From Candidatus Iainarchaeum sp. (GTDB taxonomy: Archaea > Iainarchaeota > Iainarchaeia > JAGGVJ01): a stretch of 64,000 nt of DNA. Below are positions 11,911-63,998 of this stretch, piece after piece. The DNA lies in the NCBI GenBank assembly GCA_021158055.1, contig JAGGVJ010000040.1, positions 4,114 through 68,113 on the forward strand, written 5' to 3'. Within the stretch, counting starts at the first letter, position 1; every line of letters begins with the position of its first letter. The translations under genes were made by a program, and so were the position numbers. Below the pieces are notes generated by a model, which was given only the letters and a program-made list of their open reading frames with translations, was not told the origin of the DNA and did no database searches.

Positions 11911-11948
11911 CTTGAACAAATTGCCATTTCGGAACTTTGCTAAAATAC

Positions 11949-12800: not shown

Positions 12801-12837
12801 AGTTTATCAAAACAAAACATTGCATATCAAAAAACAT

Positions 12838-51200: not shown

Positions 51201-53557
51201 TCCTGCGTGCATTCAACCGTATTTTGCGTCACTGAAAATTCAACGGGTGTGGTGGCTGCGTAAAGCGGCTGTTTTCCTTCAGAGTCAATCAAAGTTCCAA
51301 GTTCTTCGTCAAACGGGCTTCTTTCCATGCCGCCCAGGTTTATGTAAGTCCAGCCCCTGAAATTGAATTTCACTCTCTCGCCCAAAACCACGTTGTCTTT
51401 CACCTGAACTGCAAAGTCCACAACATGCGTTCCTTTCCCGACATCTTTTCCAACCACCTGCACCCACTTGTTCATCTGTCCTGAAAGCGTGGTTCCTGCC
51501 ATGTCAATATCCTGTCCAAGCGGGGGGTTGTGGGTCGTGCCTGAAGACGGTTCTCCCATCGCCTGCATCACTCCCGTGATTGCAACATTGTCTTTTGCTG
51601 AAAAGTCGTTTTCTTCAAGGCCTGTCATCAAAAACAACCCTGCCTCGTCTGACGCGGCGGCCGTGTTCAACGCGACTCTTGCGCGGTACTGCTTGCTTTC
51701 AACAACGCTTTCTACCCTGTTTCCGAACCTGTCGAACAAGCCGATGAAAACCGCGCCCGTGGAATCCGCGGGGCTGAAAAGCTGTACATCTATGCGGTTT
51801 TCTTTTGAAGAGTCAATGTTTATGACATGGGAAAAGTATTTTGCGCTGCCAGGCGATTCAACGACTGCGTAAGCCTGTATGCCTTCAACAACGTCAAACT
51901 CGGCAACCCCATTTGAATCCGTGACAGTCGGCGACGAAAGCTCTTTGCCTAAAACCGTTGCCGCATTGTCAAATAAAATCACGCTTGCTCCTGAAACCGG
52001 GTTTTCTTCTTTTGTCACTTTGACCGTGACTTTTGTCTGCGTTGCGCTTATGTCAATCATTGGTTCCTGCGTGGTCGGAGTTTCCACTGGTTTTGCCACT
52101 CCGACTTTGGAGCCGACGTATGCCTTTGCAATGACTGTCTTGTTGTTCGGAACGTCGCTGAACTCCGCGCAACCGCTTGAACCGGTCAATTCTGACGGGA
52201 TTCCCAGCACTTTTGACGCAGTCTCAAAAAGAACAACCGGCACACCGTTTAACGGTGCCTTGGTGTCTTCTTCGCGGACACACACTCTAAGGGTTGATGT
52301 ATTTTCCTTGGTTGACAGCTCCATTGAAGCCAAAACTGATTCCCCTGCCCCGACATCTGTCCTGACAAACGGGACATAGTTGCCTGAGTAGACAGAAACC
52401 ATGTATTTTTTTGACTTGTCCACAAGAACTTTTCCTGTCCCGTCGATGTCCTGCGATTTCACGAGAACGCCGTCCAGATAAACGTTTACGGCTGCTTCAA
52501 GGGGTGTTCCGGTCATGGTTCTTGCAGTGACGTTTATAAAGTCGCTGTTTGCAAAATCAGCTGTTGAAATAATCATTTCAAGTTTGTTTTCAGCGTTTGA
52601 AAGGACCTGAACGGCTTTTTCAGTCTGGCTCAAGTACTCTTCTTTTGACACCGTCACGTTGTAAAGTCCTGGTATCAGCCCTCTTAAAACTGTTTTTCCG
52701 TCAACGTCGGTCTTTTCAGAAGACGCGAGTTCTGCAACGCCTTTTGGGCGGGCTTCAACCTCCGCTCCTTCAACTGCATCGCCGTTTATGTCTTCAATGT
52801 AAACCAGTAAATCTGCAGGTTCGCTTTCATCGGCTTCAAGGCTTATGGAGAGCTCCTGGTCTGAGTTGAACGTGAATGTTTCGCTTTTTTCCTGATAGCC
52901 CGGGGATGTGAAAACAAGGTCAATGTCTTGTCCCTGCGGAACTATCGCTTCAATTACCCCGTTTTCTTTTATGGTGTATGTTCCAAGGTCTTCTCCTTCT
53001 TTCATTACCTTGACTGTGCCTTCCCTTACAATGCTGTCAAAATCGGTTGTGACTCTCATCACTACTTTCACGTTTGTTTTTTCAAGTTTTGAAAGCGAAA
53101 AATCCTGCTGAAGCGAAGTGAAATAAAAGGATTTGTCAAGGGTTTCGTAGTCATACTTTGTTATCTCTACTGTGCCGTAACTATTGAGCTTGTCGAAATT
53201 TTCTATTGTTGCAATTCCTTTTGAATCGGTTTTTCCGATAAACGAGCTTAAGGTATCCGGGTAGGTTATCCTGACATCAGCCCCTTCAATGGCTGCTCCT
53301 GTTTCCGCATCAACGACTTTTACCTGAAGCGTTCCAGAGGCGGGGGTGCCAAGCATGAAAAACGCGACAAGCCCAATGAAAAAAATCGTCAAAAATAACG
53401 GGAAAACAGGTATGTTCTTGTCTTCAAGCGCGTCTATTACGCGGTAAACAGGGATTCCGTGGTCATCCACAAAATCCATCAAACCAAAAAACTTGTTTTC
53501 CACGCCGTAATAAAAGTCGTTCAAATTGTCTTTAACTGACTTGGATGCCAACTTCAT
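45260..53557 (-). CDS. Giant N-terminally anchored surface protein (2765 aa); paralogous architecture to 38389..44628, with (DYDSHY)n repeat and C-terminal coiled coil
   Basis: N-terminus LNDFYYGVENKFFGLMDFVDDHGIPVYRVIDALEDKNIPVFP + TM, colinear with the N-terminus of the 2079-aa protein. CarbopepD_reg-like repeats (TLQVKVVDAETGAAIEGADVRITY...). HYDYDS tandem repeat. ~450-aa coiled coil. C-terminal LMSWNPAGAGASAG motif shared with the other giant. Confidence 0.8.
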   Translation of the reverse strand: MKLASKSVKDNLNDFYYGVENKFFGLMDFVDDHGIPVYRVIDALEDKNIPVFPLFLTIFFIGLVAFFMLGTPASGTLQVKVVDAETGAAIEGADVRITYPDTLSSFIGKTDSKGIATIENFDKLNSYGTVEITKYDYETLDKSFYFTSLQQDFSLSKLEKTNVKVVMRVTTDFDSIVREGTVKVMKEGEDLGTYTIKENGVIEAIVPQGQDIDLVFTSPGYQEKSETFTFNSDQELSISLEADESEPADLLVYIEDINGDAVEGAEVEARPKGVAELASSEKTDVDGKTVLRGLIPGLYNVTVSKEEYLSQTEKAVQVLSNAENKLEMIISTADFANSDFINVTARTMTGTPLEAAVNVYLDGVLVKSQDIDGTGKVLVDKSKKYMVSVYSGNYVPFVRTDVGAGESVLASMELSTKENTSTLRVCVREEDTKAPLNGVPVVLFETASKVLGIPSELTGSSGCAEFSDVPNNKTVIAKAYVGSKVGVAKPVETPTTQEPMIDISATQTKVTVKVTKEENPVSGASVILFDNAATVLGKELSSPTVTDSNGVAEFDVVEGIQAYAVVESPGSAKYFSHVINIDSSKENRIDVQLFSPADSTGAVFIGLFDRFGNRVESVVESKQYRARVALNTAAASDEAGLFLMTGLEENDFSAKDNVAITGVMQAMGEPSSGTTHNPPLGQDIDMAGTTLSGQMNKWVQVVGKDVGKGTHVVDFAVQVKDNVVLGERVKFNFRGWTYINLGGMERSPFDEELGTLIDSEGKQPLYAATTPVEFSVTQNTVECTQEICMNYGFSRAITGEEIKDLTASEAYLSAVYSLGIEVQAKQDLEDLQVEILNSDASLDFVSYHYLGTQTQLDDEAHALAVNLESLGKNRGTGLEAVFVPTAENNSASVKIIVKRSGEVLIEKELFLKVVAGLGLSVFVEPEMAVAGEKTQFMITVLRAGDFEAVTDATIKLVNNIGKPLGNKTITITGKDKRNRGRNGVYATTIEPASGVIAVNVSADHFAEETILVRVGKEAAIAIDEDPFVIEIPLNIKTATKQLAIKNSSSKKLTDLQVVVERDEGFPDDDFSLELDDASITRLLGPGETTYLTFTSGYFPDSTDSASAEATIKIFAVKDNEYVTAQGRIKLLYAPKIDAQVIAECLEVTPSQTEFVVGSEDLDTAFNSMEVVLKNNCGIDLSNIVAYSSNDLDGGIFVLDCNGNQVIEGTGEEESTVIELLSADSLSGENKATVLVTFQADTLDDSENNAEDDDVVGTLVFRGENGSQDVSGELDYAVVFLDEAAALDVENKVKLKLKAGESLDILDGNAEKLVLKNRGSVTFKNIRISEKAEDWEINPNIYVNYLSETEASSTIDELEPEDTTHFEIEVDASGYSGEAGRMTGTLVIDADVYYKNKPGKVTSVSREVGLIVEIVPEEEGCLKVISSESIDFVSTTAYFDEIKSSVVIKNECGKRITRFVDFIPLNDFRLYIDFSEGSKRSLFDGETAQFDFRLKRVSKRAAIVSDSFQKGVFIAGETSSDTEILSELIMINVEIGSDLKTSDFTTEYLVHSCDPDIGITKTVSIPTKAGLSGDCSDGYCDGMQAAEYVIEKADRFMDKILTAFEGKKIRDIGCGSSKRNICTFEELLQSGLVPQDDWILNGVDLFLMDDRVTLEALKRAKTNVVSRYFNGQIVSGDYREMVNSGRISTGGDIYYDYDSHYDYDSHYDYDSHYGYDSHNDYDSHNDYDSEELLRKCGWYKVKFKPVFFARDGEIGSQFSIFVETSYVGETAACEGNALHMSTLLPWDNLSSEDAAEMKNTVFVIPKNEEDSFKGIVEEIASGLSGTELDYNLLEKDGRVKTSLDVVGGKNVVKLLFRDSANLTKEESELVDILNKDIGYPAYGVIHHDVSKFGSNIFELVIDKNALGDSSEDLNKSIGTAVSAFVEIASGAKPIGCYFGSQSTSKREGDRAKIDSFVITGLTEAPLNAKDAGRNECVFANGNWKIILPEFEGRVEVDKDGRTLIVKDAEALASLIACECTAALISFDTGTGIYGGYKIKYTGEDFTKDVFRDKIHNLRDKENEPAWATCVADVDEKFWGSTFSSDFWGESMLTDDCHSCRPEIRWSGLMTTEDGNEKVMKGDDGVKLRMNIEIKESPTINTCPAMNSACTIVTGVAVARGGAALMSWNPAGAGASAGLFVADQLVDFLVVDEILKVGFDHMAYKNKFKEAGEGFTDISTLTRSPYYTPMIAAGITAGPTAAGAICSYKKLGEEVVESSGKLKKVKGALAQPFRRLYPAIRQFKIQRAVASQVLEPDALDSSGKQLKLLVLGNKNYLDNYNIKKEIAESYKNAAGKWSKYADTLDEIARLEDDISKLDGKVAGLTKERDAILAGMKIDTAGMGDDLVYKAHLDALDTVNKEIDDSKKALKDVLDNLSKTKPAELDVKGLESAFKNANDTMNLNMEQVKGIEETITQNRAALNDLSPRLDDAGHLFKQNKQVLLEGIDEFMTAPGDTLDDMDRKFITDFRDMVNKGDDPAKLADAVSEIKGNSAFSNLTMGYDSALDNVLTSLSDFKKIEIDTSNLKKGIQTLEQGKTNLVKETGELNKLSGDIVKTMDASNKELTVRRELLKEVKDTQKMFSEFEAERVENLKKVNEQFENVWKLQGKIEGGALGKEKLLETQNELTARKGQLETDLRSLADEGVNFSDEGDDVTDALLKNTEKHSEFVAKSNEMTKGVEETEKKLESLKKVKRINPLGSAAIAGACWALDVYIAQHDNCIVTFEEV

Positions 53558-53729: not shown

Positions 53730-55526
53730 TTAACAACTTTCGCTTGCTGAGCCGGTGCACATGTCACACGACGATACTGACATGAAGTTGTCAACACACT
53801 GGAGATCAAGCCCTTCAACATAAGGCAACGTGCTCCTTGTTGCCCCCTTCCATTCTTCCTTGAGGTCTGCCCTTACACTGTCACTTACACTGTTTTCCCT
53901 TGCCAGTGAAACGCAGAACACAAACGGGACAGAAATGCCCCCGTCATCGGATGTCGTTGAACTCATCGGGGCTTCCATCGGGTGATAAATAATCTGGTTT
54001 TCTTCCGGTTCAAAATGAGTTGTCCCGTAACCCCCCGGTATTCCAAACCCCTTATCCACAATGGTAAAACAGGCATAAGCAGCTTCCGGAACCTGCGCGC
54101 AAAGCGCCGGCTTCAGGTTTACCTGGTCTCCAAAAGGATTTGAAATAATGCCTGATTCAGGGTACTGCACATAAGAAGTGCTTCTTGAGCACCCGTCAAA
54201 AACACCTGCTCCGTTGTCAACAGTGTACCTGAAGTACTTTGTGGGGAAAACCACTTTTTCAAGGAAACCTAAAGAATGCCTGTTTTTACTTGAATTCAGC
54301 CCTTCGCGAATAAAAAACTGCGCGCCTGAAAAAACACCATCAATTTTCCCCCTGTACTCAAGAGTGTCAAAATACAACGGCGCAAATTCAATGTTGCCGG
54401 CACTTGACTTCAGTTCCGAATTATTGCCTGAAAGAACACCCCCTATTTTTTCTGAAACACTGTCCATGTAACTTTCGGCAGTTATCTCGCCTGAAGCATA
54501 AACATCGTCGTATTCTGAATCAAGGCATTTTCTTTCAAAATCCGTTTCAAAATACGGGGGGGTTTTGGGGTCATAGTGCACCCACACCGGCAAAGAAACT
54601 TCCGAAGAATCCGAAACAGCCACTGAAATTTCTTTTGTGCAGTCAAGCCGTGATTTTTTTCCAAAATACTCTGCTTCACCATAAATTTTGCAATCCACAG
54701 GATAATCCGACCCCCTCGTCATGCAATCGCATCCCTGTGCGCCTGTTGATTCCAGGTCGCACAAGCCCCACGGTTTTATTTTACCAGGCCCCTCCAGATT
54801 CAGAATTTCGTCCTGGATCGCAAAGGCAATGTCTGCTGCTTTCATAAACCTTATCGGAACAGGGACAATCAGGCTTCCCTCCGGGATCACAGAACTGACG
54901 CTTTCTTCCCCAGTGAGATTGTTTGTCATGACTATCCGCGCAATCTCATCGTTGCTTAAGTCGGCCGGGGGCTTTATTTCCACTGCAAACGAACCGTCTT
55001 TTGAACTGAAACAATCATCTGGAAAAACAAAAATATTATATCTTGTGAGGCTGCCGACCAATCCAATACTATAGTCCCCGATATTTACAAGGTGTTCTGA
55101 ATCAGTATCTTTAAACTCTCCAACCACGTCAAAAACGCTTGAAGTCATATTTGTCAATAAACTTGTCCTGACACCGGATTCAAAAAAATCCTTCACGACC
55201 GTGCAAAAAGTGCCGCGGTCAGTTGAAACAAAAATGGCTTCTTCAAGGTCGTTGTTAAAATACTTCTTCAAAAACATATTGTGGGTCTGGGCCTTAAACT
55301 GAAAAATCACCGTGTGAATCGCATCCATCCTTGCAAAATCAAGAGTCGCCGACTCCTTCAGAGAAGACTGGTAGTCAACAATGACACTGACCCTGTTTTT
55401 TTCAGTGTTTATTATGTTTACTATCATTACAAGAGCAATTACAAGAATCACCATCCCGACAAGCGGGGTAAACAATGTAAACCCTTTTTTCATCTTTTGC
55501 GACACTGACATACCAGGCAACCAGGT
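53730..55526 (-). CDS. Large (~598 aa) cysteine-rich protein with class III (prepilin-like) signal peptide; candidate filament-associated adhesin
   Basis: From ATG at 55526: MKKTWLPGMSVSQKMKKG|FTLFTPLVGMVILVIALVMIVNII, a charged N-terminus, K-G, then a ~22-aa hydrophobic stretch, which is the archaeal prepilin pattern. More than 20 Cys. The listed ORF extends to 55802 only by reading through a 21-bp tandem duplication and would overlap the neighbouring gene. Confidence 0.6.
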   Translation of the reverse strand, partial: TWLPGMSVSQKMKKGFTLFTPLVGMVILVIALVMIVNIINTEKNRVSVIVDYQSSLKESATLDFARMDAIHTVIFQFKAQTHNMFLKKYFNNDLEEAIFVSTDRGTFCTVVKDFFESGVRTSLLTNMTSSVFDVVGEFKDTDSEHLVNIGDYSIGLVGSLTRYNIFVFPDDCFSSKDGSFAVEIKPPADLSNDEIARIVMTNNLTGEESVSSVIPEGSLIVPVPIRFMKAADIAFAIQDEILNLEGPGKIKPWGLCDLESTGAQGCDCMTRGSDYPVDCKIYGEAEYFGKKSRLDCTKEISVAVSDSSEVSLPVWVHYDPKTPPYFETDFERKCLDSEYDDVYASGEITAESYMDSVSEKIGGVLSGNNSELKSSAGNIEFAPLYFDTLEYRGKIDGVFSGAQFFIREGLNSSKNRHSLGFLEKVVFPTKYFRYTVDNGAGVFDGCSRSTSYVQYPESGIISNPFGDQVNLKPALCAQVPEAAYACFTIVDKGFGIPGGYGTTHFEPEENQIIYHPMEAPMSSTTSDDGGISVPFVFCVSLARENSVSDSVRADLKEEWKGATRSTLPYVEGLDLQCVDNFMSVSSCDMCTGSASESC

Positions 55527-55539
55527 TTTTTTCATTTTA

Positions 55540-55581
55540 ACACCTTTATCTTCAAAAACACTTTGTTTGTCTTCAAAAACA
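55540..55581. repeat. 21-bp tandem duplication (tcttcaaaaacactttgtttg / ...gcttg) in the 5' leader of the pilin-like gene
   Basis: Seen directly. Produces the spurious KQSVFEDKQSVFEDK in the extended ORF. Confidence 0.85.
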
Positions 55582-55608
55582 CTTTGCTTGCACCTTACAT
55601 AAATTGCT

Positions 55609-56250
55609 TTACCTGTCCCTTGCTTTCTGCAAAAACTGTTTTGCCGAAAAACCTGCTTTTTCAAGCCAACCGATATACCTTTCAAGCCACCCAAGGTACC
55701 ATGCGGCATAAAACACAAACGTAAACACAAAAAGGCTTGCCCTGAAAAGCGTATTGTGGGTGAAATCCGCTGCTTCCCAGCCAAACCACACCCCGGTTGC
55801 AAGAGTCAATGCAATGCGGACCGGGTTAAACAAAAGAACTGCAAAAAAGCCAAGCCCCGCGCCGACTGCCCTGCTTTTCAGAGTCCTGTCAGTGCTTGAA
55901 AAGACAGCCGCAAAAAGAACAGCTATTTCAAGGTCGCCTGAGCAAATCCTTGAAATCACTGCCGTGAACGGGTAAAACAGGTCAGAAAAAATCAACGGCG
56001 CAGCCCCTGAAAAAATACCGGGCGTCATTTCTGCCCTGATTCCCAAAACCGCAAGCACTGCAACTGCAGAAACCGCGCTGAATGCCTGCAAAAGAGGGGT
56101 GAGCAAAAGGGAAATCAAAAACGAGACCGCTAAAAAAAGAACTGAAAATAATGCCGTGAACTTTGCTGCCCGGATTAACTCAAAACGAAGAATATTTATT
56201 GGAATACGCACTTTTTTCACCTTATGGGTGAAATGGATAAGGGCAAACAT
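55609..56250 (-). CDS. Exosortase/archaeosortase-family membrane protein (213 aa, short form)
   Basis: Polytopic membrane protein with SRICSGDLEIAVLF (the family's conserved C-S-G active-site Cys region) followed ~38 aa later by FNPVRIALTL (conserved N-x-x-R) and then H (FTHN). The ATG at 56250 overlaps the ATPase start head-to-head, so one of the two starts is probably misplaced. Confidence 0.55.
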   Translation of the reverse strand: MFALIHFTHKVKKVRIPINILRFELIRAAKFTALFSVLFLAVSFLISLLLTPLLQAFSAVSAVAVLAVLGIRAEMTPGIFSGAAPLIFSDLFYPFTAVISRICSGDLEIAVLFAAVFSSTDRTLKSRAVGAGLGFFAVLLFNPVRIALTLATGVWFGWEAADFTHNTLFRASLFVFTFVFYAAWYLGWLERYIGWLEKAGFSAKQFLQKARDR

Positions 56251-58518
56251 GTAATTAAAAGTGAGGGTGGCAAAAAAACCCTTGTAATCGATTACAGGAA
56301 CTCAAAAACCGGGGCAGACATCGCAGAATACGCCGACTGCATGGAACAAGTGCTCTCTCTTTTGAGAACAAACGACGCTGACTTAGTGGTTTTGGCTGAC
56401 CTGTATGAAAGGGTCTACGACGAAAAGCAGACAAAAATGCTCAAAGAAATAGCTGACCTGGCAAATTTGTTTGAAACAGAAAACCTTTGGGGCTACACAT
56501 ATCTCGGAAACGTAAAAACAGAAAGCGAAGTGACTTTAAGCGAGAGGCACAACCTGGTGGTCAAAATTGCCCACGACCTGCTTTTGCGCGACCCGATAAA
56601 GGCATACCTGACTCTTCTTGACACCCTGAAAAAAGAAAAAATGAGAGCAAACGCAGGAGGAAAAACCTATCCCGTCGTGTTCCTGAAAACACTGGTGTTT
56701 GTCAAAAACAAGCTTGAGGCAACCAATCTTATTTCCGTCACAAAAAACCTGATTTTAAGGCTTCACAAAGTCCCGACGGGACGAGGTTTTTATCACTCGT
56801 TTTTTGACGCGCAGATAAAGCCGTCTTTTGTGGGTTCAAGGCTTCTTTTCAAAACCGACGAAAAAGTTGAACTGGTTGACCAGTACAACGTTCTTGACGC
56901 GGAAGTGCGGGTCTACAGGCACCCTGAAAAAATCGCTTTAATGTATTACATCAACCCGCCCGAGTACTCGCTTTCGCCTGAAAAATACTTCATCTTGACA
57001 AAAACAAAAGAAGTCGTTGCAAAATACAGGCCCACAAACACAGAATTTTCAGATGCTTCCCAGTCAAGGAAATACTTCGAGCACATTTACCAGGCAACCA
57101 TAAACGACATTGCAAAAGAAAACAGCATTTCCATCTCACCGCGGGAAAAAGAAGCGCTTGCAAAAATAGTGGCGCGCTACACAATCGGCTACGGCGTGCT
57201 TGAACTCCTGTTGTCTGACAGGAAACTGACAGACGTTTACCTTGATGCGCCTCTCGGAACCAAACCTATTTATGTTGTTCACGGCGAATACGGGCAGTGC
57301 CAGACAAACGTAATCTTCACAAACGAAGAAGCCCGCTCAACAGTATCCCGGCTCAGGGCGCTTTCAGGCAGGCCTTTTGACGAAGCCCACCCTGTCATGG
57401 ACTTTAACCTATCCTCGCTCCAGACAAGGGTCGCAGTCATCGGCCAGCCCCTCAGCCCGCACGGCATAGCGTTTGCGTTGAGGCTTCACAAGACCACTCC
57501 CTGGACTTTGCCCCAGTTCATTGACGCGCACATGATTGACCACCACACAGCAGGCCTTTTGAGCTTTCTCGTGGACTCAAAGGCATCCATGCTCATAACC
57601 GGCTCAAGGGGTTCGGGAAAAAGCTCCATGCTTACCGCGCTCATGCTTGAGATCCTTCAAAACCTGAGAATCATCGTCCAGGAAGACACCCTTGAAATTC
57701 CCGCGCCGTACCTCAAAAGCATCGGCTACAACATCCAGCAGCTCAAAACCCAGAGTGCGATTTCCGTGGGAAGAACCGAAAACGAAGTAAGCCCTGACGA
57801 GGCATTGAGAACAGCGCTTCGTCTGGGTGACTCTGTCCTGATCGTGGGTGAAGTGAGATCAAAAGAAGCAAGAGTGCTTTACGAGGCAATGCGTATCGGC
57901 GCGGTGGGAAACGTTGTCATGGGGACCATTCACGGCGAAAGCGCTTATTCCGTGTGGGACAGGATTGTAAACGACCTTGAAGTGCCGAACACTTCCTTCA
58001 AGGCAACCGACATGGTCCTTGTCCAGGCCCCTGTTAGATTCAAGGGCTCGCTCAAACGGCACAGGAGAGTAATCCAGCTGACTGAAGTGAAAAAGCACTG
58101 GCAAAACGACCCTGCCGCAGAAGAGGGGCTTCTTGACCTGCTCTCTTTTGACGCTTCAAAAGACGGGTGGGACCTGTTAAAGGACAACTTCAAGGACTCC
58201 GAGTACTTCCCGAAACTCAAGCGCACAACCGGCATGAGCATTGAGGAAATATGGAAGGACATAAAACTGCGCGGAGAATCAAAAAAATACCTTGTCGACT
58301 CAAAAAACAAATTTGAAATCCCTGCTCTTCTGGAAGCCGAAAACACTGTTCCGATGAACAACAAATTACTGCTGATGGCTGAAGAAATGCGCAAATCCGG
58401 CGGAGGCATGGACTACGACAAGCTTCTTGAATCATGGAAAAAATGGGTTGACAACCGGTATGTGAAAGAAATAATTGCAAAAAAAAGGCTTGTTTCAACA
58501 CGTAAAATCAAAAGGTGA
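56224..58518 (+). CDS. Type IV pilus/archaellum-type secretion ATPase (FlaI/TadA/GspE/VirB11 superfamily) with ~250-aa N-terminal extension
   Basis: 764 aa. Walker A LITGSRGSGKSSMLTAL, Asp/Walker B box SVLIVGEVRSKEA and His box VVMGTIHGESA. Typical family members are ~450-550 aa. Confidence 0.85.
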   Translation: MGEMDKGKHVIKSEGGKKTLVIDYRNSKTGADIAEYADCMEQVLSLLRTNDADLVVLADLYERVYDEKQTKMLKEIADLANLFETENLWGYTYLGNVKTESEVTLSERHNLVVKIAHDLLLRDPIKAYLTLLDTLKKEKMRANAGGKTYPVVFLKTLVFVKNKLEATNLISVTKNLILRLHKVPTGRGFYHSFFDAQIKPSFVGSRLLFKTDEKVELVDQYNVLDAEVRVYRHPEKIALMYYINPPEYSLSPEKYFILTKTKEVVAKYRPTNTEFSDASQSRKYFEHIYQATINDIAKENSISISPREKEALAKIVARYTIGYGVLELLLSDRKLTDVYLDAPLGTKPIYVVHGEYGQCQTNVIFTNEEARSTVSRLRALSGRPFDEAHPVMDFNLSSLQTRVAVIGQPLSPHGIAFALRLHKTTPWTLPQFIDAHMIDHHTAGLLSFLVDSKASMLITGSRGSGKSSMLTALMLEILQNLRIIVQEDTLEIPAPYLKSIGYNIQQLKTQSAISVGRTENEVSPDEALRTALRLGDSVLIVGEVRSKEARVLYEAMRIGAVGNVVMGTIHGESAYSVWDRIVNDLEVPNTSFKATDMVLVQAPVRFKGSLKRHRRVIQLTEVKKHWQNDPAAEEGLLDLLSFDASKDGWDLLKDNFKDSEYFPKLKRTTGMSIEEIWKDIKLRGESKKYLVDSKNKFEIPALLEAENTVPMNNKLLLMAEEMRKSGGGMDYDKLLESWKKWVDNRYVKEIIAKKRLVSTRKIKR

Positions 58519-58522
58519 AAAA

Positions 58523-60730
58523 GTGCGCGAAAGAAAAAAACAAAACCAGGCAAACAGAAAAACCCGCGACACCGAAAACATTGATGTCAAGCTCCCGGGA
58601 TCACTGATTTACGGGGAGCGCGAAACAGATCCGGTCACAAAAACCGCTGATTCAAAAAAACCAGGAAAAAGCGGTTTTGTGAAATTCTGCAAGTGGAGCT
58701 ACAGGCGCATAAAATCAAAAAACTCCAAATTTGACGAAAAATACAGGCAGGCAATTGACTTTCTCGGCTGGAACCTCACTGCAGACGAGTTTGCTTCAGG
58801 ACAGAAAATGTCTATGGTCCTTGGTTTTGCATTGTCTGCAGTGATTGGACTGTGCGCATCCTACTTTGGCCTGATTTCATTATCAGGCGGCATTTCAATG
58901 GACAATCTTCCATTCCTTGGCATGCTTGCGGTGATTCCGATGGCCGCTTCGGCGATGGTTGTCAAAATGCCTTTAAACGCTGCCGAAACAGAAAAAATGA
59001 ACTCCATGACTTACGTTCCTGAAATCGTAAATTACCTTGTCATGAGCATGAAGCTGTCGCCAAACCTTGAAAAGGCAATCCAGTTTGCTGCAGAGCACGG
59101 GCGGGGAAAGATCGCCGACGATTTCAAAAAGCTGTTGTGGGACGTTGACATCGGAGTATACAACACTGTTGAGGAAGGCCTTGACGACCTCGCGTACAAA
59201 TGGGGGGACTACAGTTCTGTCCTGAAACACGCCTTGATGCAGATTCGCGCTTCAGTGATTGAGGCAAACGATGCAAGGCGCCTTGCGTTGCTTGACAAGG
59301 CGGTAGCCGATGTCATTGAAGGAATCAAGGCGGAAATGAGCACTTACTCGCGAAAACTGCACGCGCCCGCGATTTACCTTTATTACCTCGGGGTCCTCCT
59401 GCCGCTTATGCTTGTGATCATCCTGCCTATCGGCTCCGTGTTTACCGGGGCAGGCCTTGCTGACAGGAACCTCTTGTTTGTGCTCTACAACATAATCATA
59501 CCGACAGCCACTTTCCTTTTTGCAAGAAACCTCCTCAAAAAAAGACCCCCGACTTACACCCCGCCGGTCATCCCCGATGACTTTCCGGGAATCCCCCCAA
59601 AACACAAGTTGTTTTACGGGAAAAACAAAAAAACATTCCCTGTCCTGGCACTTGCAATAATTGCTGCTTTGGCTGTTCTCCTGTTTTCATTCATGGCAAA
59701 CAACACAATTACTCAGCTTAGCTTTTCAGGCACCGACTTTGGCATCGACCCTTTTCACATGGTCACGCTTGAAGAGGCAAAAAACAACATCTGGGGAACT
59801 TTCAACGACACCGGGTTTGAATGGGGCGGAATAAAATATGTCACTCCGATCTGGATGATCTACGGAGTTCTTTTATCGGTTGTTTCCTTTATTTCAGTTT
59901 ACCTTTACTTTGACTCAAAATACAAAAAAGAAGCCCAAGACCACATCAAAAAACTTGAGGACGAATTCAACGACGCGATTTACGTGCTTGCCTCAAGGCT
60001 CGGTGAAAACAGGCCCATGGAAGAAGCCCTTTCCCACTCTGTCAAGTTTTTGGGTCCGGGTTCTCTTGTCGGGACCGAGATTTTTGCAACAATCACCAAA
60101 AACATATCAATGATGGGCCTGACCTTGCGATCCGCAATCTTTGACTCAAATTACGGGGCGCTGAAACATGTTCCCTCCAACCTGATCCAAAGCGCAATGA
60201 CCATCTTAAGCGACTCGGTAGAGCTCGGGACAAACGTTGCGGCGCGCTCGATTATGTCTCTTTCCTCGCAGATCCGGGATTCAAAGAAAATCGACGAGAA
60301 CTTGCGCAAAATGCTTGAGGATCTGACTTCCATGATGAACTCAATGGCGATAATGATTGCCCCCATGGTTCTTGGAATCACCACCGCGCTGCAGAAAATC
60401 GTGCTGAATGCCCTGACCAATATCACAAAAGCGACAAGTCCTGGCGGAGCGAGCGCTGCAATGGGGACAGGCGGAATGGGCAATATGCTCTCAGGCGCAG
60501 GCAGCGCCCAGCAGGCAGCAAACATAATCAACCCCACTGATTTCCTTTTGATAATCGGGTTTTACGTGATTGAGCTTGTCATCATTTTGATGTATTTCAC
60601 CATGAACATCCAGGAAGGGGACAACAAAATAATAGTCAAGATGGCCATTGCAAAAATCCTGCCTGTTGCAATCATATTTTTCATAATAAGCACTCTTCTT
60701 GCAAACAATTTGATAGCAAACGCGGGTTGA
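58523..60730 (+). CDS. Type IV filament platform membrane protein (TadC/FlaJ/PilC-like, T2SS-F type), unusually long
   Basis: ~735 aa. Cytoplasmic basic N-terminus then many TM helices. Immediately downstream of the ATPase and upstream of the pilin genes. The listed ORF starts at TTG 58475, inside the ATPase. GTG 58523 (5 bp after the ATPase stop) or ATG ~58810 are alternatives. Assignment rests mainly on context and topology. Confidence 0.6.
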   Translation: MRERKKQNQANRKTRDTENIDVKLPGSLIYGERETDPVTKTADSKKPGKSGFVKFCKWSYRRIKSKNSKFDEKYRQAIDFLGWNLTADEFASGQKMSMVLGFALSAVIGLCASYFGLISLSGGISMDNLPFLGMLAVIPMAASAMVVKMPLNAAETEKMNSMTYVPEIVNYLVMSMKLSPNLEKAIQFAAEHGRGKIADDFKKLLWDVDIGVYNTVEEGLDDLAYKWGDYSSVLKHALMQIRASVIEANDARRLALLDKAVADVIEGIKAEMSTYSRKLHAPAIYLYYLGVLLPLMLVIILPIGSVFTGAGLADRNLLFVLYNIIIPTATFLFARNLLKKRPPTYTPPVIPDDFPGIPPKHKLFYGKNKKTFPVLALAIIAALAVLLFSFMANNTITQLSFSGTDFGIDPFHMVTLEEAKNNIWGTFNDTGFEWGGIKYVTPIWMIYGVLLSVVSFISVYLYFDSKYKKEAQDHIKKLEDEFNDAIYVLASRLGENRPMEEALSHSVKFLGPGSLVGTEIFATITKNISMMGLTLRSAIFDSNYGALKHVPSNLIQSAMTILSDSVELGTNVAARSIMSLSSQIRDSKKIDENLRKMLEDLTSMMNSMAIMIAPMVLGITTALQKIVLNALTNITKATSPGGASAAMGTGGMGNMLSGAGSAQQAANIINPTDFLLIIGFYVIELVIILMYFTMNIQEGDNKIIVKMAIAKILPVAIIFFIISTLLANNLIANAG

Positions 60731-60738
60731 TCTCAAAA

Positions 60739-61221
60739 ATGAAAAAAACAACAATGCCTGGTTTAAGAGGACAGGAATTTGACATTTTCAAAATACTTCT
60801 CGCAGTCGCTTTCGCGCTTGCCTTGACTGCCATACTTTCCGGTTTTGTCAACAGCTTGTGGGACGAGACCTGTGAGTTTGACAGCAACAAGATAGTGAGC
60901 GCAATCCACGCGGCAAAAGCTGTTCCTGGAGAGGTTTTGAAGATTGAAGACGTCTGCTTTAACAAGGGGAGCAAAATCACTGCCGAATCTTACGCGATTC
61001 AGGCAAAGCTTGTCGGGCGCGACGGGGGATGCATAAAATTCAGCGGCTGCCCAAAACAGGCAACGTGCCCGAACGAATTTGAAGCAGAATTCAACGCAAG
61101 CAACACAAAAGACTTTTTCGTTGTGTGCGGGCGAAGCACTGACCCCGTGTGTGTTTTCGAGCTTCCTGAAAGCGAGTATTATGTGTCGGGATGCACGATT
61201 TACCTTGACGGAAAACCCTGA
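60739..61221 (+). CDS. Pilin-like protein with class III signal peptide (160 aa, Cys-rich)
   Basis: MKKTTMPGLRG|QEFDIFKILLAVAFALALTAILSGF is a prepilin-type N-terminus. 8 Cys in the mature part. Confidence 0.7.
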   Translation: MKKTTMPGLRGQEFDIFKILLAVAFALALTAILSGFVNSLWDETCEFDSNKIVSAIHAAKAVPGEVLKIEDVCFNKGSKITAESYAIQAKLVGRDGGCIKFSGCPKQATCPNEFEAEFNASNTKDFFVVCGRSTDPVCVFELPESEYYVSGCTIYLDGKP

Positions 61222-61395
61222 CAAAAAAACAATAACAATAAATAATATCAAACACAATTCAGTATTCACTAAGAATATTAATCAAATCCAGTATTTGCTA
61301 AAAATATCAATCAATGTCAATACACTAAAATATTACAAAAATATTAAGATATTATCAAAAAAGATATTATAAAAATCTTCAGAAAAGGTGATTCA

Positions 61396-61821
61396 ATGAA
61401 AAACGCTTTGAAAGGACAGGCATTCGACACATTCAAACTGTTGATCGCGGCAATTGTTGCGATTTCCATTCTTGGGGTGATGATGGGAATTATCGGCGGC
61501 ACAACACTGCCCGGTTCAGACCCGAACCACGAGATAAAGAGCAAATTAAGCAGCGCAGTGATAAACGCCGGAAACACCGTGACCACATCCACAATAAAAT
61601 TCAAATTCGGTGACACCTACTGCATCACGGCCTTGAAAGGAAACTCGGGCCTTGACGACGACCAGATTGATTTTGACGTTCAGCACAACGGAATAGAAAT
61701 AAGCCCGGATGACTCCAAATGCATACAGGCAAAAAGCACTGATGTAAACGGGAGAGCAGCAATCAAATGCGACCCGAGCACCGCCACGTGCACAATAACA
61801 ATCAAACCGGCATTGAACTGA
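61396..61821 (+). CDS. Pilin-like protein with class III signal peptide (141 aa)
   Basis: MKNALKG|QAFDTFKLLIAAIVAISILGVMMGI, the same GQxFDxFK(I/L)L motif as the preceding gene. 5 Cys. Confidence 0.7.
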   Translation: MKNALKGQAFDTFKLLIAAIVAISILGVMMGIIGGTTLPGSDPNHEIKSKLSSAVINAGNTVTTSTIKFKFGDTYCITALKGNSGLDDDQIDFDVQHNGIEISPDDSKCIQAKSTDVNGRAAIKCDPSTATCTITIKPALN

Positions 61822-61876
61822 AGCGAAAGCTTGAACAAAACTGAAGCAAAAGCTTAACAAAAAAGAGGTATGAAAA

Positions 61877-62176
61877 ATGAAAAAAGGAGACAGCTCATGG
61901 GGTGCGCTTTACCTGTTGATTGTGCTTGTGATTGCAGCCGTGCTCATAACCACTGTAATAAAGCCCATGTTCAGCCAGTCGCAGGAAGCCGTGACTTCAA
62001 AAAAACTCCCTTCCTCAATGGGATTGATCGGACTGGCTGCCGTTTTCAGCAAAAGGCAGGAAAACACTGTTCTGGAAAAGCGCGCTGAAGACACAAGCAC
62101 ACCCCCAAAAAAAAACCTTGTTCAAACCTGTTTCACAGCATTTTCAAGTGTGCCAAATGCCAGCGCACAAGGGTGA
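61877..62176 (+). CDS. Small pilin-like protein (99 aa), possible minor pilin
   Basis: MKKG|DSSWGALYLLIVLVIAAVLITTVI hydrophobic N-terminus after K-G. Weaker match than its neighbours. Confidence 0.45.
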   Translation: MKKGDSSWGALYLLIVLVIAAVLITTVIKPMFSQSQEAVTSKKLPSSMGLIGLAAVFSKRQENTVLEKRAEDTSTPPKKNLVQTCFTAFSSVPNASAQG

Positions 62177-62180
62177 ACCG

Positions 62181-62756
62181 ATGCGCCGCCTGCACGGACA
62201 AGAAGAAGCGCCGATTGAGCTTCTGGTCGGGATAATCATGTTCATAATGGTCTCTGTCCTTGCCATCCAGGTAACGACAAGCATAAACAATTCCATCTGC
62301 AGCGAAAAACTGAACAAGGCACAGATTGACATTTCCTCAAACCTCAAAAGTGCGCTTACAGGCTCAGAATTCACTGTGCAGACCTTTTCGGTTGACATCC
62401 CAAGCTGTCCTGAAAAAAAAATAAAAAGCCTGAACATAGAAAAAATAACCGACCCCAACATCTGCCAGATTTACTGCCGGCCGACCAAAAACACCTGCTG
62501 GATGACAGTGCTTGAAGTGCACGGCGAAACAGAAGGGGAAATAGAAAAAGAATTCATGTGCATCAACATCTCGCCTGAAACAGAAATAATCCCGGAAGAC
62601 GACGAAGACCTGTGCAACTGGGACAAAATGAGGCAAAAAACAGGCATAACAAGCACAACACCTCTTGAGCAGTTAAACCTGGGCCCCGCCTACTACAAAT
62701 TCACTTTCAAAAGAGACACCGGAATGACCCCAAAAATAAAGGTGTGCATTGAATGA
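62181..62756 (+). CDS. Pilin-like protein with class III signal peptide (191 aa, Cys-rich)
   Basis: From the internal ATG: MRRLHG|QEEAPIELLVGIIMFIMVSVLAI. 8 Cys. The listed ORF start (62118) would overlap the previous gene. Confidence 0.6.
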   Translation: MRRLHGQEEAPIELLVGIIMFIMVSVLAIQVTTSINNSICSEKLNKAQIDISSNLKSALTGSEFTVQTFSVDIPSCPEKKIKSLNIEKITDPNICQIYCRPTKNTCWMTVLEVHGETEGEIEKEFMCINISPETEIIPEDDEDLCNWDKMRQKTGITSTTPLEQLNLGPAYYKFTFKRDTGMTPKIKVCIE

Positions 62757-63430
62757 AACTTGCCAAAAAACAACGCGGGATAATGCTCTGGACAATGTCA
62801 AAAATCACTTTGTTTATTTTCATGCTCGGCCTTGTCACTGTATTCTACCACTTCCTTATCTACACAAACACGATTACCCTGCAGGAAAACGCAAAAAACA
62901 CTGCAAAAAACATGATTTCAAAACTCGACGAAGTGCGCTTCAGCACCATGACCTGCAAAGAAGAAGTGATTCCCATTGATTACAGGTTTCGCGCAGGGGA
63001 AACCGACTTGTCTTACCTGATAAGAATTGAAAAAACAAAGCTAAAAATCGGAGATACGCAAGAGGAAAAAAGGCTTTCGGTTCAGATCAGAAGCTCAAAA
63101 GACAAAGAACTGCTTGGAGCATCAGACACGATGCTTGCGGAAAACGAAAAAATAAGCTTTTACAAATGCCCCTACAGATTCGGTTCGGCAGACGACGACT
63201 TCTTTTGCCAAAAGGAACTGGAAAAAAGCAATGGGAATGCATCACTTGACATCTACCCAAGTGAAAAAAACGAAAAAAACAACAATCTTCAAAGCTCTTA
63301 CATCATTATAAAAAAAGGATTTTTTAAAGGCGACGAAACAAAACAAGGGATTTGTGTCGTGGACTGTTTTGACACAGACCAGAGAACCTGCCTGAAAGCA
63401 ATAAGGACAGTTGATGCGTGTGAATGCTAA
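62753..63430 (+). CDS. Pilin-like protein with class III signal peptide (225 aa, Cys-rich)
   Basis: MKLAKKQRG|IMLWTMSKITLFIFMLGLVTVFY. 7 Cys. ATGA overlap with the upstream gene. Confidence 0.6.
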   Translation: MKLAKKQRGIMLWTMSKITLFIFMLGLVTVFYHFLIYTNTITLQENAKNTAKNMISKLDEVRFSTMTCKEEVIPIDYRFRAGETDLSYLIRIEKTKLKIGDTQEEKRLSVQIRSSKDKELLGASDTMLAENEKISFYKCPYRFGSADDDFFCQKELEKSNGNASLDIYPSEKNEKNNNLQSSYIIIKKGFFKGDETKQGICVVDCFDTDQRTCLKAIRTVDACEC

Positions 63431-63998
63431 AAGCCAAAAGCCAAAGACTCCAAAGGGGTTTATCGGACCGATTGGTTTTGACCTGCCAAGCATAATGCCA
63501 ATCGTTTTTGCCATAATAGTTTTTTTCAGTGCCGTGAGCTACTCGTACACCACCGTGAACGAAAAAAACAACGTTCTTGACTCAATAGAATCATCCATCA
63601 AAATAGCCGATATCTTAAAAGGAAACTCTTACCTGTTCTTCGACGCCACAGATTCAGGCGCAAAAAACAAGTTTGCCTCAAACTGCGAAAAAGCAGTTAA
63701 CATTGCGCAGTCAAAAAACATAAACTTCGCGGCCACTTTTGTAAAGCTTGACTCAAGCTCAAGCATTGAATGGCTGATTGAAAACAAGGAAAGCGAAATT
63801 GACTCCTGCACAACAGCAGACGGCAAACACCTTTGCTGGTGCGGCTTTTCCCCAAAAAAATTTGATTCAAACCTGTCAAAACAATTCTGGAGCATTTCTT
63901 TTCCCGTAACAGTTGACGTAAAACCGCCCGGTTCCGGTCCGGAGGACATTTACCCGCAAAGTTACCTCAGGAAAATAATTGTGGTGGTGTGGAAGTGA
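63414..63998 (+). CDS. Pilin-like protein with class III signal peptide (194 aa)
   Basis: MRVNAKSQKPKTPKG|FIGPIGFDLPSIMPIVFAIIVFFSAV. 5 Cys. The stop codon falls at the window end. Confidence 0.6.
   Translation: MRVNAKSQKPKTPKGFIGPIGFDLPSIMPIVFAIIVFFSAVSYSYTTVNEKNNVLDSIESSIKIADILKGNSYLFFDATDSGAKNKFASNCEKAVNIAQSKNINFAATFVKLDSSSSIEWLIENKESEIDSCTTADGKHLCWCGFSPKKFDSNLSKQFWSISFPVTVDVKPPGSGPEDIYPQSYLRKIIVVVWK

What the first reader, a model, noticed from the sequence alone, without database searches (positions are those of the whole stretch)
53730..63998. Type-IV-filament-like locus of unusual composition: ATPase + platform + six small pilins + a 598-aa pilin-like protein + archaeosortase-family protein
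The locus diverges from one short region (55.5-56.3 kb). On the plus strand an N-terminally extended FlaI/TadA-like ATPase (764 aa) is followed by an unusually long TadC/FlaJ-like platform (~735 aa) and six consecutive small Cys-rich genes with class-III signals. On the minus strand an exosortase/archaeosortase-family membrane protein is followed by a ~598-aa Cys-rich pilin-like protein. No FlaF/G/H, FlaK/PibD, archaellin-type genes or secretin are present. The gene set therefore fits neither an archaellum nor characterised archaeal adhesive pili. It most resembles a T2SS/Tad/minor-pilin tip complex (several minor pilins plus a large PilY1-like protein) transplanted into an archaeon, and it sits directly beside two giant surface proteins. 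I propose a dedicated filament or pseudopilus system for display or secretion of the neighbouring giant proteins.
Basis: partly seen in the sequence, partly recalled or inferred. Interest (0 to 1): 0.85.

Follow-up and report, generated by a model that had tools for sequence, protein, structure and literature searches.

The report
DPANN type IV pilus–sortase locus
This is a gene cluster conserved in hundreds of tiny DPANN archaea. It combines a type IV pilus-like machine and eight pilin-like proteins with giant surface proteins and a sortase-like enzyme, and the enzyme's probable target lies just beyond the window, so the cluster most likely builds their attachment apparatus.

Summary
At 53.7-64.0 kb there is a T2SSE-family ATPase (764 aa), a divergent T2SSF-type platform (735 aa) and six small genes with class III-like N-termini. 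On the other strand lie an exosortase/archaeosortase-family protein (203 aa), a 593-aa pilin-like protein and two giant proteins.

The organism is a DPANN archaeon (Diapherotrites/Iainarchaeota). The locus is not a one-off. The ATPase family occurs in 329 species genomes of Iainarchaeota and Micrarchaeota, with conserved gene order.

New here:
- The locus runs past the window end. A seventh small pilin gene follows, then a 1451-aa secreted protein with a classic tripartite C-terminal sorting signal (…FN-LPSLPE + TM helix + K/R tail). All 67 family C-termini examined carry this signal, and no NCBIfam model matched the six proteins tested. It is the most likely substrate of the exosortase-like enzyme.
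- The giants share a conserved N-terminal ~50-aa module plus TM anchor. They co-occur with the enzyme in 24 of 28 loci.
- The 593-aa protein is a large pilin (KKG|FTLFT…), not PilY1-like.

It is not an archaellum. A pseudopilus that exports the giants is possible but untested. I rate it a new variant of known kinds: an archaeal type IV filament coupled to an exosortase system.

The parts
38389..44628 (-). Giant surface protein 2 (2079 aa). It has the conserved N-terminal ~50-aa module plus TM anchor, followed by CarboxypepD_reg/Ig-like repeats.
   Evidence: ORF. Pfam CarboxypepD_reg 78.9 bits. The N-terminal module aligns with that of the other giant and with 35 homologues.
45260..53557 (-). 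Giant surface protein 1 (2765 aa). It has the same N-terminal module (…DFVDDHGIPVYRVIDALEDKNIPVFP + TM), then beta-sandwich repeats and a coiled-coil C-terminal region. It has no conserved C-terminal sorting signal.
   Evidence: The N-module family has 742 50%-identity clusters. The module always sits at residues ~3-70, and full-length proteins are mostly 2000-3200 aa.
53730..55511 (-). Large pilin-like protein (593 aa, 16 Cys) with the class III-like N-terminus MSVSQKMKKG|FTLFTPLVGMVILVIALVMIV.
   Evidence: Gene call of 593 aa. The N-terminus [KR]KG|F[ST]LFTPLVG is conserved in 17-23 homologues of 267-698 aa. It has no Pfam or NCBIfam hit.
55545..55590 (.). A 21-bp tandem repeat (2.2 copies) in the short spacer between the exosortase-like gene and the large pilin gene.
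   Evidence: Its function is unknown.
55609..56220 (-). Minimal exosortase/archaeosortase-family membrane protein (203 aa), a probable Cys transpeptidase/protease.
   Evidence: TIGR04178 33.8 bits against a cut-off of 23. Homologues carry PF09721 and are named as such by NCBI/JGI. C93, N132, R135 and H155 are invariant in 42-54 homologues. The AF2 model has pLDDT 91.5.
56224..58518 (+). Assembly ATPase (764 aa). The GspE/FlaI/TadA-type core spans residues ~292-700, preceded by a conserved DPANN-specific N-terminal domain of ~290 aa.
58523..60730 (+). Platform protein (735 aa), a divergent member of the GspF/TadC/FlaJ (T2SSF) family.
60739..61221 (+). Pilin-like p1 (160 aa, 8 Cys): …GLRG|QEFDIFKILLAVAFALAL.
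61396..61821 (+). Pilin-like p2 (141 aa): MKNALKG|QAFDTFKLLIAAIVAISIL. It has its own AT-rich upstream region with a TATA-like box and GGTGA, which makes it the candidate major pilin.
   Evidence: The best PDB hits of the family profile are type IV pilins, but only weakly (8fj5 Pilin_N, E = 0.07).
61877..62176 (+). Tiny pilin-like p3 (99 aa here, family ~55 aa): MKKG|DSSWGALYLLIVLVIAAVLITTVIKPMF.
62157..62756 (+). Pilin-like p4 (199 aa, 8 Cys): …RRLHG|QEEAPIELLVGIIMFIMV. It belongs to the same superfamily as p1 and p2.
62753..63430 (+). Pilin-like p5 (225 aa, 8 Cys): MKLAKKQRG|IMLWTMSKITLFIFMLGLV. It evolves fast. Positional orthologues mostly start MLG|F[IT]LSKLNLLIL.
63414..63998 (+). Pilin-like p6 (194 aa): …PKG|FIGPIGFDLPSIMPIVFAIIVFF. 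It is the best-conserved small component (KGFIGPIGDDLPSLIPL…VKPM..LVVVAW).

Best explanation
The locus encodes a lineage-specific type IV filament (pilus) machine of DPANN archaea (Iainarchaeota/Diapherotrites and Micrarchaeota), coupled to a dedicated exosortase-type sorting system and to giant membrane-anchored surface proteins.

Proposed working:
- A hexameric GspE/TadA/FlaI-type ATPase, with a DPANN-specific N-terminal domain, and a long T2SSF-type platform extract processed pilins from the membrane and polymerise them.
- Eight distinct pilin-like proteins are encoded: three to four paralogues with a G|Q site, a ~55-aa mini-pilin, p5, p6, p7 and a large GFTLFT pilin. Each is present once and in a fixed order. 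This suggests one major subunit (p2 is the candidate) plus a set of minor, priming or tip pilins.
- A prepilin peptidase encoded elsewhere is assumed to do the processing.
- The 203-aa exosortase/archaeosortase-family enzyme most likely cleaves the C-terminal LPSLPE + TM + K/R signal of the conserved 1450-1770-aa secreted protein. That protein is encoded at the far end of the same locus, just outside the window. By analogy with ArtA, the enzyme would then re-anchor it on the cell surface.
- The giants are inserted through their own N-terminal anchor.
- Together these parts would form an adhesion or host-contact apparatus.

Shown: gene content, family membership, conserved motifs and synteny.
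Inferred: filament assembly, the enzyme-substrate pairing and the adhesive role.
For: - Family assignments.
- Taxonomy and spread: the 100%-identical ATPase is from a Ca. Diapherotrites MAG. There are hundreds of homologues of 757-767 aa at 55-60% identity, and 329 species genomes, all Iainarchaeota or Micrarchaeota apart from a few probably mis-binned contigs.
- Conserved order xrt(-)|ATPase-platform-p1-p2-p3-p4-p5-p6(+) across 80 loci.
- The enzyme gene is present in 43 of 54 loci with at least 3 kb upstream.
- Class III-like N-termini are conserved in every pilin family.
- Cys, Arg and His of the exosortase core are invariant.
- The 1451-aa protein, whose gene starts about 2.8 kb past the window end, has a Sec signal and ends …PLNLPLFPQEP-AMLALMLLAMLSSMLAI-RLKRTEGNK.
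- All 67 complete C-termini of its family (65 metagenome loci plus two copies of the window's own contig) show G-F-[NS]-[LIV]-P-[SL]-x-P-E, a hydrophobic helix and a K/R tail.
- Pilin genes lie within 10 kb of that protein in 26-29 of 31 long loci.
- Enzyme, ATPase and sorting-signal protein lie on one contig in at least five genomes of the LPSLPE type. Four more carry LPWTPE, LPSVPE or LPGVPE variants.
- Giants co-occur with the enzyme in 24 of 28 loci.
Against: - No prepilin peptidase was found in the window or in the next 10 kb, and whole genomes could not be searched.
- No filament, processing event or expression has been observed for any member.
- The enzyme-substrate pairing rests on synteny and on precedent from other exosortase systems, not on a genome-wide presence/absence test.
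- The platform of this genome is below the Pfam cut-off on its own.
- Which pilin is the major one is a guess from promoter-like sequence.
- Eleven of 54 loci lack the enzyme gene nearby, and 4 of 28 have the enzyme but no giant within 10 kb.
Confidence: 0.6

Rival explanations
1. The machine is a T2SS-like pseudopilus (a short piston, not a long pilus) whose job is to export or display the neighbouring giant proteins.
For: - Giants are syntenic with the locus in most genomes.
- There are many different single-copy minor-pilin-like genes, as in T2SS tip complexes.
- The giants share a conserved cytoplasmic N-terminal module that could dock on the machine, and the ATPase has an unexplained extra N-terminal domain.
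Against: - The giants have an ordinary N-terminal signal-anchor helix and need no second-membrane crossing, because archaea lack an outer membrane.
- No secretin or pore component is present.
- Four of 28 loci have the machine and the enzyme but no giant within 10 kb.
- p2 has promoter features expected of an abundant major subunit.
Confidence: 0.2
2. The exosortase-like protein is not a C-terminal sorting enzyme here. Instead it acts on N-terminal signals. It would replace the missing prepilin peptidase, or cleave the giants at the conserved …GIPxFP motif just before their TM helix.
For: - No A24 peptidase is in the locus.
- The enzyme gene sits next to the large pilin and the giant.
- [LI]PxxP-like motifs precede the TM helix in the giants and in p6 as well as in the C-terminal signal.
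- The enzyme and the giants are present or absent together.
Against: - Every characterised member of the family recognises C-terminal tripartite signals (established knowledge: Haft 2006/2012, ArtA in Haloferax). A textbook signal of that kind is present in the same locus.
- The invariant Gly at position -1 of the pilins is the hallmark of aspartic A24 peptidases.
- At least one Micrarchaeota genome (Mia14) has a FlaK-like prepilin peptidase elsewhere (PMC5498576).
- The N-terminal motifs would face the cytoplasm. By analogy with other exosortases, the catalytic residues are expected to face the outside, although this was not tested on the model here.
Confidence: 0.1
3. The filament serves DNA or nutrient uptake (a Com-like pilus) rather than adhesion.
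For: DPANN archaea depend on hosts for nucleotides, and T4P-like systems have been suggested for DNA exchange in Micrarchaeota (PMC5498576, discussion). Nothing in the sequence excludes this.
Against: - No DNA-binding or translocase components (ComEA/ComEC-like) were detected near the locus.
- The linked proteins are giant beta-sandwich surface proteins typical of adhesins.
Confidence: 0.08
4. It is a degenerate or atypical archaellum.
For: Some sources label homologous ATPases 'FlaI'. The best NCBIfam hit is the FlaI model.
Against: - The FlaI model scores 140 bits against a cut-off of 550.
- The PDB profile ranks A. fulgidus GspE2 and CpaF above FlaI.
- There are no archaellin, FlaF, FlaG, FlaH or FlaCDE/X genes.
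Confidence: 0.02

Closest known systems
Euryarchaeal type IV pili of the Epd type (Methanococcus maripaludis) and 'clade 2' archaeal T4P (Makarova, Koonin & Albers 2016, PMC4858521)
   Same: - A GspE2/TadA-like ATPase plus a TadC-like platform.
- Several different pilin genes in one operon.
- A G|Q cleavage-site type in four of the pilins, which my own knowledge links to EppA substrates.
- An S-layer-like or large surface protein is often encoded nearby.
   Different: - The ATPase carries a conserved ~290-aa N-terminal domain with no structural neighbour.
- There is a single 670-810-aa platform.
- The pilin families have no Pfam or NCBIfam match.
- An exosortase-family gene, a sorting-signal protein and giants with a special N-terminal module belong to the locus.
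DPANN 'dark-matter' type IV pili islands noted by Makarova, Wolf & Koonin 2019 (PMC6393860, Fig. 2A)
   Same: That paper already states that some DPANN genomes have loci with the ATPase, TadC, surface proteins and unrecognisable small proteins with signal peptides that are probably pilins.
   Different: In the text I could read, that paper does not mention an exosortase/archaeosortase component, a C-terminal sorting signal or the giants' N-terminal module ('sortase' occurs 0 times). I could not see its figure, so I do not know whether it shows the same locus.
Exosortase/archaeosortase systems (PEP-CTERM/XrtA, PGF-CTERM/ArtA, and one-enzyme-one-substrate types such as XrtH and ArtD)
   Same: - Signature domain above the cut-off.
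- Invariant Cys/Arg/His.
- A cognate protein with motif + TM helix + basic tail encoded in the same locus.
   Different: - Much smaller than ArtA or XrtA (about 170-215 aa).
- No subfamily model reaches its cut-off: ArtD 20 against 125, XrtH 20 against 86, ArtB 17 against 150.
- The LPSLPE-type motif matched no NCBIfam model in the six proteins tested.
- The system is embedded in a type IV filament locus, and I found no paper describing that.
Bacterial T2SS/T4aP minor-pilin tip complexes with PilY1, and the Tad/Flp pilus
   Same: - Several single-copy minor-pilin-like genes.
- One large pilin.
- A very small (~55 aa) pilin reminiscent of Flp.
- GFTL-type N-termini in the large pilin and in p5.
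   Different: - No Glu5.
- No secretin.
- No PilY1 homology, because the large protein is itself a pilin.
- The TadA model is far below its cut-off (133 against 373).
- No Flp domain hit.
- Every relative of this ATPase recovered in the genome scan came from DPANN apart from three probably mis-binned contigs, which gives no sign of recent transfer from bacteria.

Membership tests
Type IV filament superfamily | GspE/PilB/FlaI/TadA-family hexameric ATPase | tested here: met
   Pfam T2SSE 69.6 bits against 24.9. Walker A at residue 460. The profile matches 2OAP, CpaF and FlaI at 1e-37 to 1e-27.
Type IV filament superfamily | Polytopic platform protein of the GspF/PilC/TadC/FlaJ (T2SSF) family next to the ATPase | tested here: inconclusive
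   The window protein scores 15 bits, below the 25.2 cut-off. However, 23 of 25 orthologues hit T2SSF, best 8e-7. There is no PDB sequence hit.
Type IV filament superfamily | Subunits with class III signal peptides (basic residue, Gly/Ala at -1, then a ~20-residue hydrophobic helix) | tested here: met
   All eight pilin-like proteins fit a simple rule, and the motifs are conserved across homologues. FlaFind and PilFind themselves could not be run.
Type IV filament superfamily | Prepilin peptidase (peptidase A24: PibD/FlaK/EppA) | tested here: not met
   None was found among the window ORFs scanned or in the 10 kb beyond. It is often encoded elsewhere. Whole genomes could not be searched.
Archaellum | FlaI equivalog, FlaH, FlaJ, FlaF/G and archaellins | tested here: not met
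   The FlaI model scores 140 bits against a cut-off of 550. No archaellin, FlaF, FlaG or FlaH domains were found in any ORF scanned.
Tad/Flp pilus | TadA equivalog, Flp pilin domain, TadZ, RcpA secretin | tested here: not met
   The TadA model scores 133 bits against 373. There is no Flp_Fap hit for p3 and no secretin or TadZ.
Exosortase/archaeosortase family | Signature domain (TIGR04178 / PF09721) | tested here: met
   33.8 bits against a cut-off of 23. Most of the 65 homologues carry PF09721.
Exosortase/archaeosortase family | Conserved catalytic Cys, Arg and His | tested here: met
   C93, R135 (with N132) and H155 are invariant in alignments of 22, 42 and 54 sequences.
Exosortase/archaeosortase family | Cognate substrate(s) with a C-terminal motif + TM helix + basic cluster | tested here: met
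   The 1451-aa protein at L084:13393-17748 carries one, as do all 67 family C-termini. It is syntenic with the pilin genes and the enzyme. Cleavage itself was not tested.
Named archaeosortase/exosortase subfamilies (ArtA-E, XrtH) | Subfamily model above its cut-off and the matching sorting motif (PGF, VPXXXP, PEF, PIP, IPTL…) | tested here: not met
   ArtD 20.2 against 125, XrtH 20.1 against 86, ArtB 17.2 against 150. No known sorting-signal model hits the substrates.

The most novel reading that the evidence does not exclude
The exosortase-like enzyme is a pilus-dedicated transpeptidase. After cutting the LPSLPE signal it would not anchor the 1450-aa protein to lipid. It would instead join it covalently to a component of the type IV filament, for example p6, the large pilin or a giant. 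These carry similar [LI]PxxP motifs at the membrane interface. The result would be a covalently capped or decorated type IV filament. Such a mechanism is known for sortase-built Gram-positive pili but not for any type IV filament.
Probability: 0.08. Interest if true: 0.9.

Novelty: new variant of a known kind. Interest (0 to 1): 0.62.

Why it matters
DPANN archaea are mostly ultra-small episymbionts, and how they attach to and exploit host cells is an open question. This locus is one of the few large conserved, lineage-specific gene sets in two DPANN phyla. It brings together three things expected of a contact apparatus: a filament machine, giant adhesin-like proteins and a protein-anchoring enzyme with a previously undescribed sorting signal.

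The work gives concrete, testable parts: the LPSLPE-type signal, Cys93, the G|Q cleavage sites and the giants' N-terminal module. These can be tested in cultivated Micrarchaeota co-cultures or by heterologous expression in Haloferax. It also extends archaeosortase-type sorting to DPANN and links it to a type IV filament for the first time, as far as I could find.

Tried and rejected
- Foldseek of the confident exosortase-like model against the PDB found nothing with E ≤ 0.001. The afdb50 library was unavailable.
- Profiles of the p6 family, the platform and the 1451-aa protein against PDB sequences gave nothing. The p2 family gave only marginal pilin hits.
- I looked for a C-terminal sorting signal on the giants. 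Their C-termini are not conserved, so they are rejected as classical exosortase substrates.
- No other tripartite C-terminal signals were found inside the 64-kb window.
- A single-sequence homologue search with the exosortase-like protein found only 6 hits because of the word index. A profile search was needed.
- Literature searches for archaeosortase + DPANN, and for exosortase + type IV pili, found no description of this system.
- The bacterial sigma-70 promoter and terminator scan is not informative for an archaeon.
- The archaellum reading and the PilY1 analogy were rejected, as described above.

Full report
**1. What is in the sequence**

Mechanical ORF listing and independent public gene calls on the same contig agree on the following genes.

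Minus strand:
- 38389-44628: 2079 aa (giant)
- 45260-53557: 2765 aa (giant)
- 53730-55511: 593 aa (the raw ORF runs to 690 aa)
- 55609-56220: 203 aa

Plus strand:
- 56224-58518: 764 aa
- 58523-60730: 735 aa
- 60739-61221: 160 aa (p1)
- 61396-61821: 141 aa (p2)
- 61877-62176: 99 aa (p3)
- 62157-62756: 199 aa (p4)
- 62753-63430: 225 aa (p5)
- 63414-63998: 194 aa (p6)

The two divergent start codons, 56220 and 56224, are only 3 bp apart. The rest of the window is ordinary archaeal chromosome. It encodes split RNA polymerase A'/A'' and B'/B'', ribosomal protein S7, a family B DNA polymerase and purine-synthesis genes.

**2. Family assignments**

*ATPase.* The 764-aa protein is a T2SSE-family ATPase (Pfam 69.6 bits, cut-off 24.9) with Walker A GSRGSGKS. 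No equivalog model is reached: FlaI scores 140 bits against 550, and TadA 133 against 373. A profile of 17 orthologues matches solved structures only over residues ~292-699. The ranking is A. fulgidus GspE2 (2OAP, 1e-37), CpaF (5e-30) and FlaI (8e-28).

*Platform.* The 735-aa protein is below the T2SSF cut-off on its own, at 15 bits. However, 23 of 25 orthologues hit T2SSF.

*Exosortase-like enzyme.* The 203-aa protein passes the exosortase/archaeosortase signature model (33.8 bits against 23). Most of its homologues carry PF09721, and NCBI and JGI name them 'exosortase/archaeosortase family protein'. Cys93, Asn132, Arg135 and His155 are invariant in alignments of 22, 42 and 54 sequences. No named subfamily model (ArtB, ArtD, XrtH) comes near its cut-off.

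**3. The pilin-like proteins**

Every small protein, and the 593-aa protein, has a basic residue followed by Gly and then an 18-residue hydrophobic stretch. The N-termini are conserved family by family.

- p1, p2, p4 and the seventh gene beyond the window share [KR]GQ|AF..F[KR]LLI..I.A..IL. They converge to one superfamily with typically three members per locus.
- p3 is a ~55-aa mini-pilin (QSEW.S.YLLIV..IAA.LLI..VKPMF).
- p5 orthologues mostly begin MLG|F[IT]LSKLNLLIL.
- p6 has KG|F[IL]GPIGDDLPSLIPL.FAL.IFFS and a conserved C-terminus.
- The large protein has [KR]KG|F[ST]LFTPLVG in homologues of 267-698 aa.

None of them matches Pfam or NCBIfam. The p2-family profile's best PDB hits are type IV pilins, but only at E = 0.07-0.9. 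So the 'class III signal' observation is confirmed by motif and conservation, not by a dedicated predictor.

The 593-aa protein is a large pilin, not a PilY1 analogue.

p2 is preceded by a 174-bp AT-rich spacer containing a TATA-like element and GGTGA. On that basis I take it as the candidate major subunit. This is inference.

**4. Whose genome, and how widespread**

The ATPase is 100% identical to a protein of a Candidatus Diapherotrites MAG. Hundreds of homologues of 757-767 aa at 55-60% identity come from Diapherotrites/Iainarchaeota, Micrarchaeota and unclassified DPANN.

A scan of one genome per species found relatives in 329 genomes. In the 80 loci fetched, the order enzyme(-)|ATPase-platform-p1-p2-p3-p4-(p5)-p6(+) recurs. 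Counts are as follows.

| Set of loci | Result |
|---|---|
| 54 loci with ≥3 kb upstream | enzyme gene present in 43 (40 divergent within 6 kb) |
| 42 loci with ≥8 kb downstream | pilin superfamily in 38, p6 in 35 |

The 'unusual composition' is therefore the normal composition of a DPANN-specific system. A 2019 survey had already noted that DPANN genomes contain type IV pili islands with unrecognisable pilins and surface proteins (PMC6393860). It does not mention a sortase-like component.

**5. The giants**

Both giants, and their homologues in other loci, start with a conserved module: Y...EDKFY...DFL..KGIPVY..ID.LE..GIP.FP. A TM helix follows, then CarboxypepD_reg/Ig-like repeats. Their C-termini are not conserved and carry no sorting signal.

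In 1.84 billion representative proteins this module occurs in 742 clusters. It always sits at residues ~3-70, and the full-length proteins are mostly 2000-3200 aa.

Of 34 loci with at least 9 kb upstream:
- 24 have both the enzyme and a giant;
- 4 have the enzyme only;
- 6 have neither (five of these are orphan ATPases);
- none has a giant only.

The GFTLFT pilin lies either between the enzyme gene and the giant, or just beyond the giant.

**6. The piece outside the window**

The contig continues past the window end. In order it encodes:
- a seventh pilin gene (ARG|QASFFDALTFLLIV);
- a 520-aa membrane/zinc-ribbon protein;
- an 87-aa membrane protein;
- a 1451-aa protein with a Sec-type signal peptide.

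The 1451-aa protein ends …PLNLPLFPQEP-AMLALMLLAMLSSMLAI-RLKRTEGNK. This is the tripartite architecture of exosortase/archaeosortase substrates.

A metagenome scan with this family returned 65 loci. All 67 complete C-termini examined, which include two copies of the window's own contig, show G-F-[NS]-[LIV]-P-[SL]-x-P-E, a ~20-residue hydrophobic helix and a Lys/Arg tail. In 26-29 of 31 loci of at least 15 kb, the p2, p3, p6 and p7 genes lie within 10 kb.

Enzyme, ATPase and this protein lie on the same contig here and in L016, L050, Ga0209542_10000368 and JAANMU010000319.1. Four further loci have ~1400-aa proteins with LPWTPE, LPSVPE or LPGVPE variants.

No NCBIfam sorting-signal model, and no Pfam domain, matches these proteins. 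The most economical reading is that the exosortase-like enzyme is the dedicated processing enzyme of this protein. That is inference from synteny and family precedent. Cleavage has not been shown.

**7. Mechanism proposed**

See the best explanation above. The steps rest on different grounds:
- The filament part follows established knowledge of type IV filaments (ATPase + platform + class III pilins).
- The sorting part follows established knowledge of exosortase and ArtA systems.
- The adhesive or host-contact role is inferred from the giant beta-sandwich proteins and from DPANN biology.

**8.

1. *'ATPase and platform firmly in the archaellum clade.'* Not the case.
2. *'Widespread without the giant genes.'* The locus is widespread, but giants accompany it in 24 of 28 loci that have the enzyme. 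The link therefore stands as a tendency.
3. *'N-termini fail prepilin predictors.'* They fit the rule, and the motifs are conserved.

**9. What remains open**

- No A24 prepilin peptidase was seen in the locus.
- The role of the ATPase N-domain and of the giants' N-module is unknown.
- [LI]PxxP motifs next to a TM helix recur in three protein classes (the C-terminal signal, p6 and the giants). This could be chance, or shared recognition (note 4).
- The major pilin has not been identified.

**10. Verdict**

This is a real, conserved, DPANN-specific type IV filament locus. It carries an embedded exosortase-type sorting pair and linked giant surface proteins. The kinds of component are known, but I found no prior description of the combination, the sorting motif or the giants' module. 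I rate it a new variant of a known kind, with interest about 0.6.

Noticed in passing
L084:13393-17748 (same contig; the gene starts about 2.8 kb past the window end): A 1451-aa secreted protein with no Pfam or NCBIfam domain and a conserved C-terminal LPxxPE + TM + K/R sorting signal. Its family was found in 65 metagenome loci, almost always next to the pilin genes.
   Followed up: yes
L084:10582-11277, 11326-12888, 13092-13355: A seventh pilin-like gene (ARG|QASFFDALTF…) lies here. It is followed by a 520-aa protein with N-terminal TM helices, a long charged linker and C-terminal zinc ribbons, and then an 87-aa membrane protein. The 520-aa family recurs in 27 of the 80 genome loci and in 15 of the 31 long metagenome loci.
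   Followed up: partly
L084:18252-20585: Directly downstream lie a PAC2-family gene and a second, shorter T2SSF platform gene (295 aa, 53 bits). Many related loci also have a second T2SSE ATPase there, so two type IV filament-like systems sit side by side.
   Followed up: partly
window 55545-55590: A 21-bp tandem repeat (2.2 copies, TTTGTCTTCAAAAACACTTTG) lies in the ~100-bp spacer between the exosortase-like gene and the large pilin gene.
   Followed up: no
window 61222-61395 and 61816-61862: An AT-rich 174-bp spacer with a 29-bp repeat (2.6 copies), a TATA-like box and GGTGA lies before p2. A 23-bp repeat (2.1 copies) follows p2. This suggests p2 is transcribed on its own.
   Followed up: partly
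window 48378-48480: An 18-bp repeat (5.7 copies) encodes (YDYDSH)n inside the 2765-aa giant.
   Followed up: no
window 22563-28364 (-): A third very large protein (1933 aa) with Laminin_G_3, four DUF2341 domains and a fibrinogen-C-like segment. It lacks the N-terminal module of the two giants.
   Followed up: partly
window 34221-35765 (-) and 37734-38372 (-): A 514-aa protein without any Pfam hit. There is also a 212-aa Cys-rich protein with a lipobox-like N-terminus (LLSGC), encoded directly downstream of the second giant.
   Followed up: no
P0084, P0101 (ATPase homologues): Some orthologous ATPases are ~1270 aa and carry intein/LAGLIDADG domains (PF14890, PF14528).
   Followed up: no
L029, L035, L040: Contigs with this archaeal locus are deposited in MAGs labelled Falkowbacteria or Chloroflexi, which is probably mis-binning.
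   Followed up: no
L153:10594-12630: In one relative, the gene next to the exosortase-like gene encodes a 678-aa DsbA/thioredoxin-domain protein. This would fit the Cys-rich nature of the pilins and giants.
   Followed up: no
L062, L065, L016, L028: In a few genomes the exosortase-like gene or part of the pilin set is moved to the other side of the ATPase. It still stays within the locus.
   Followed up: partly
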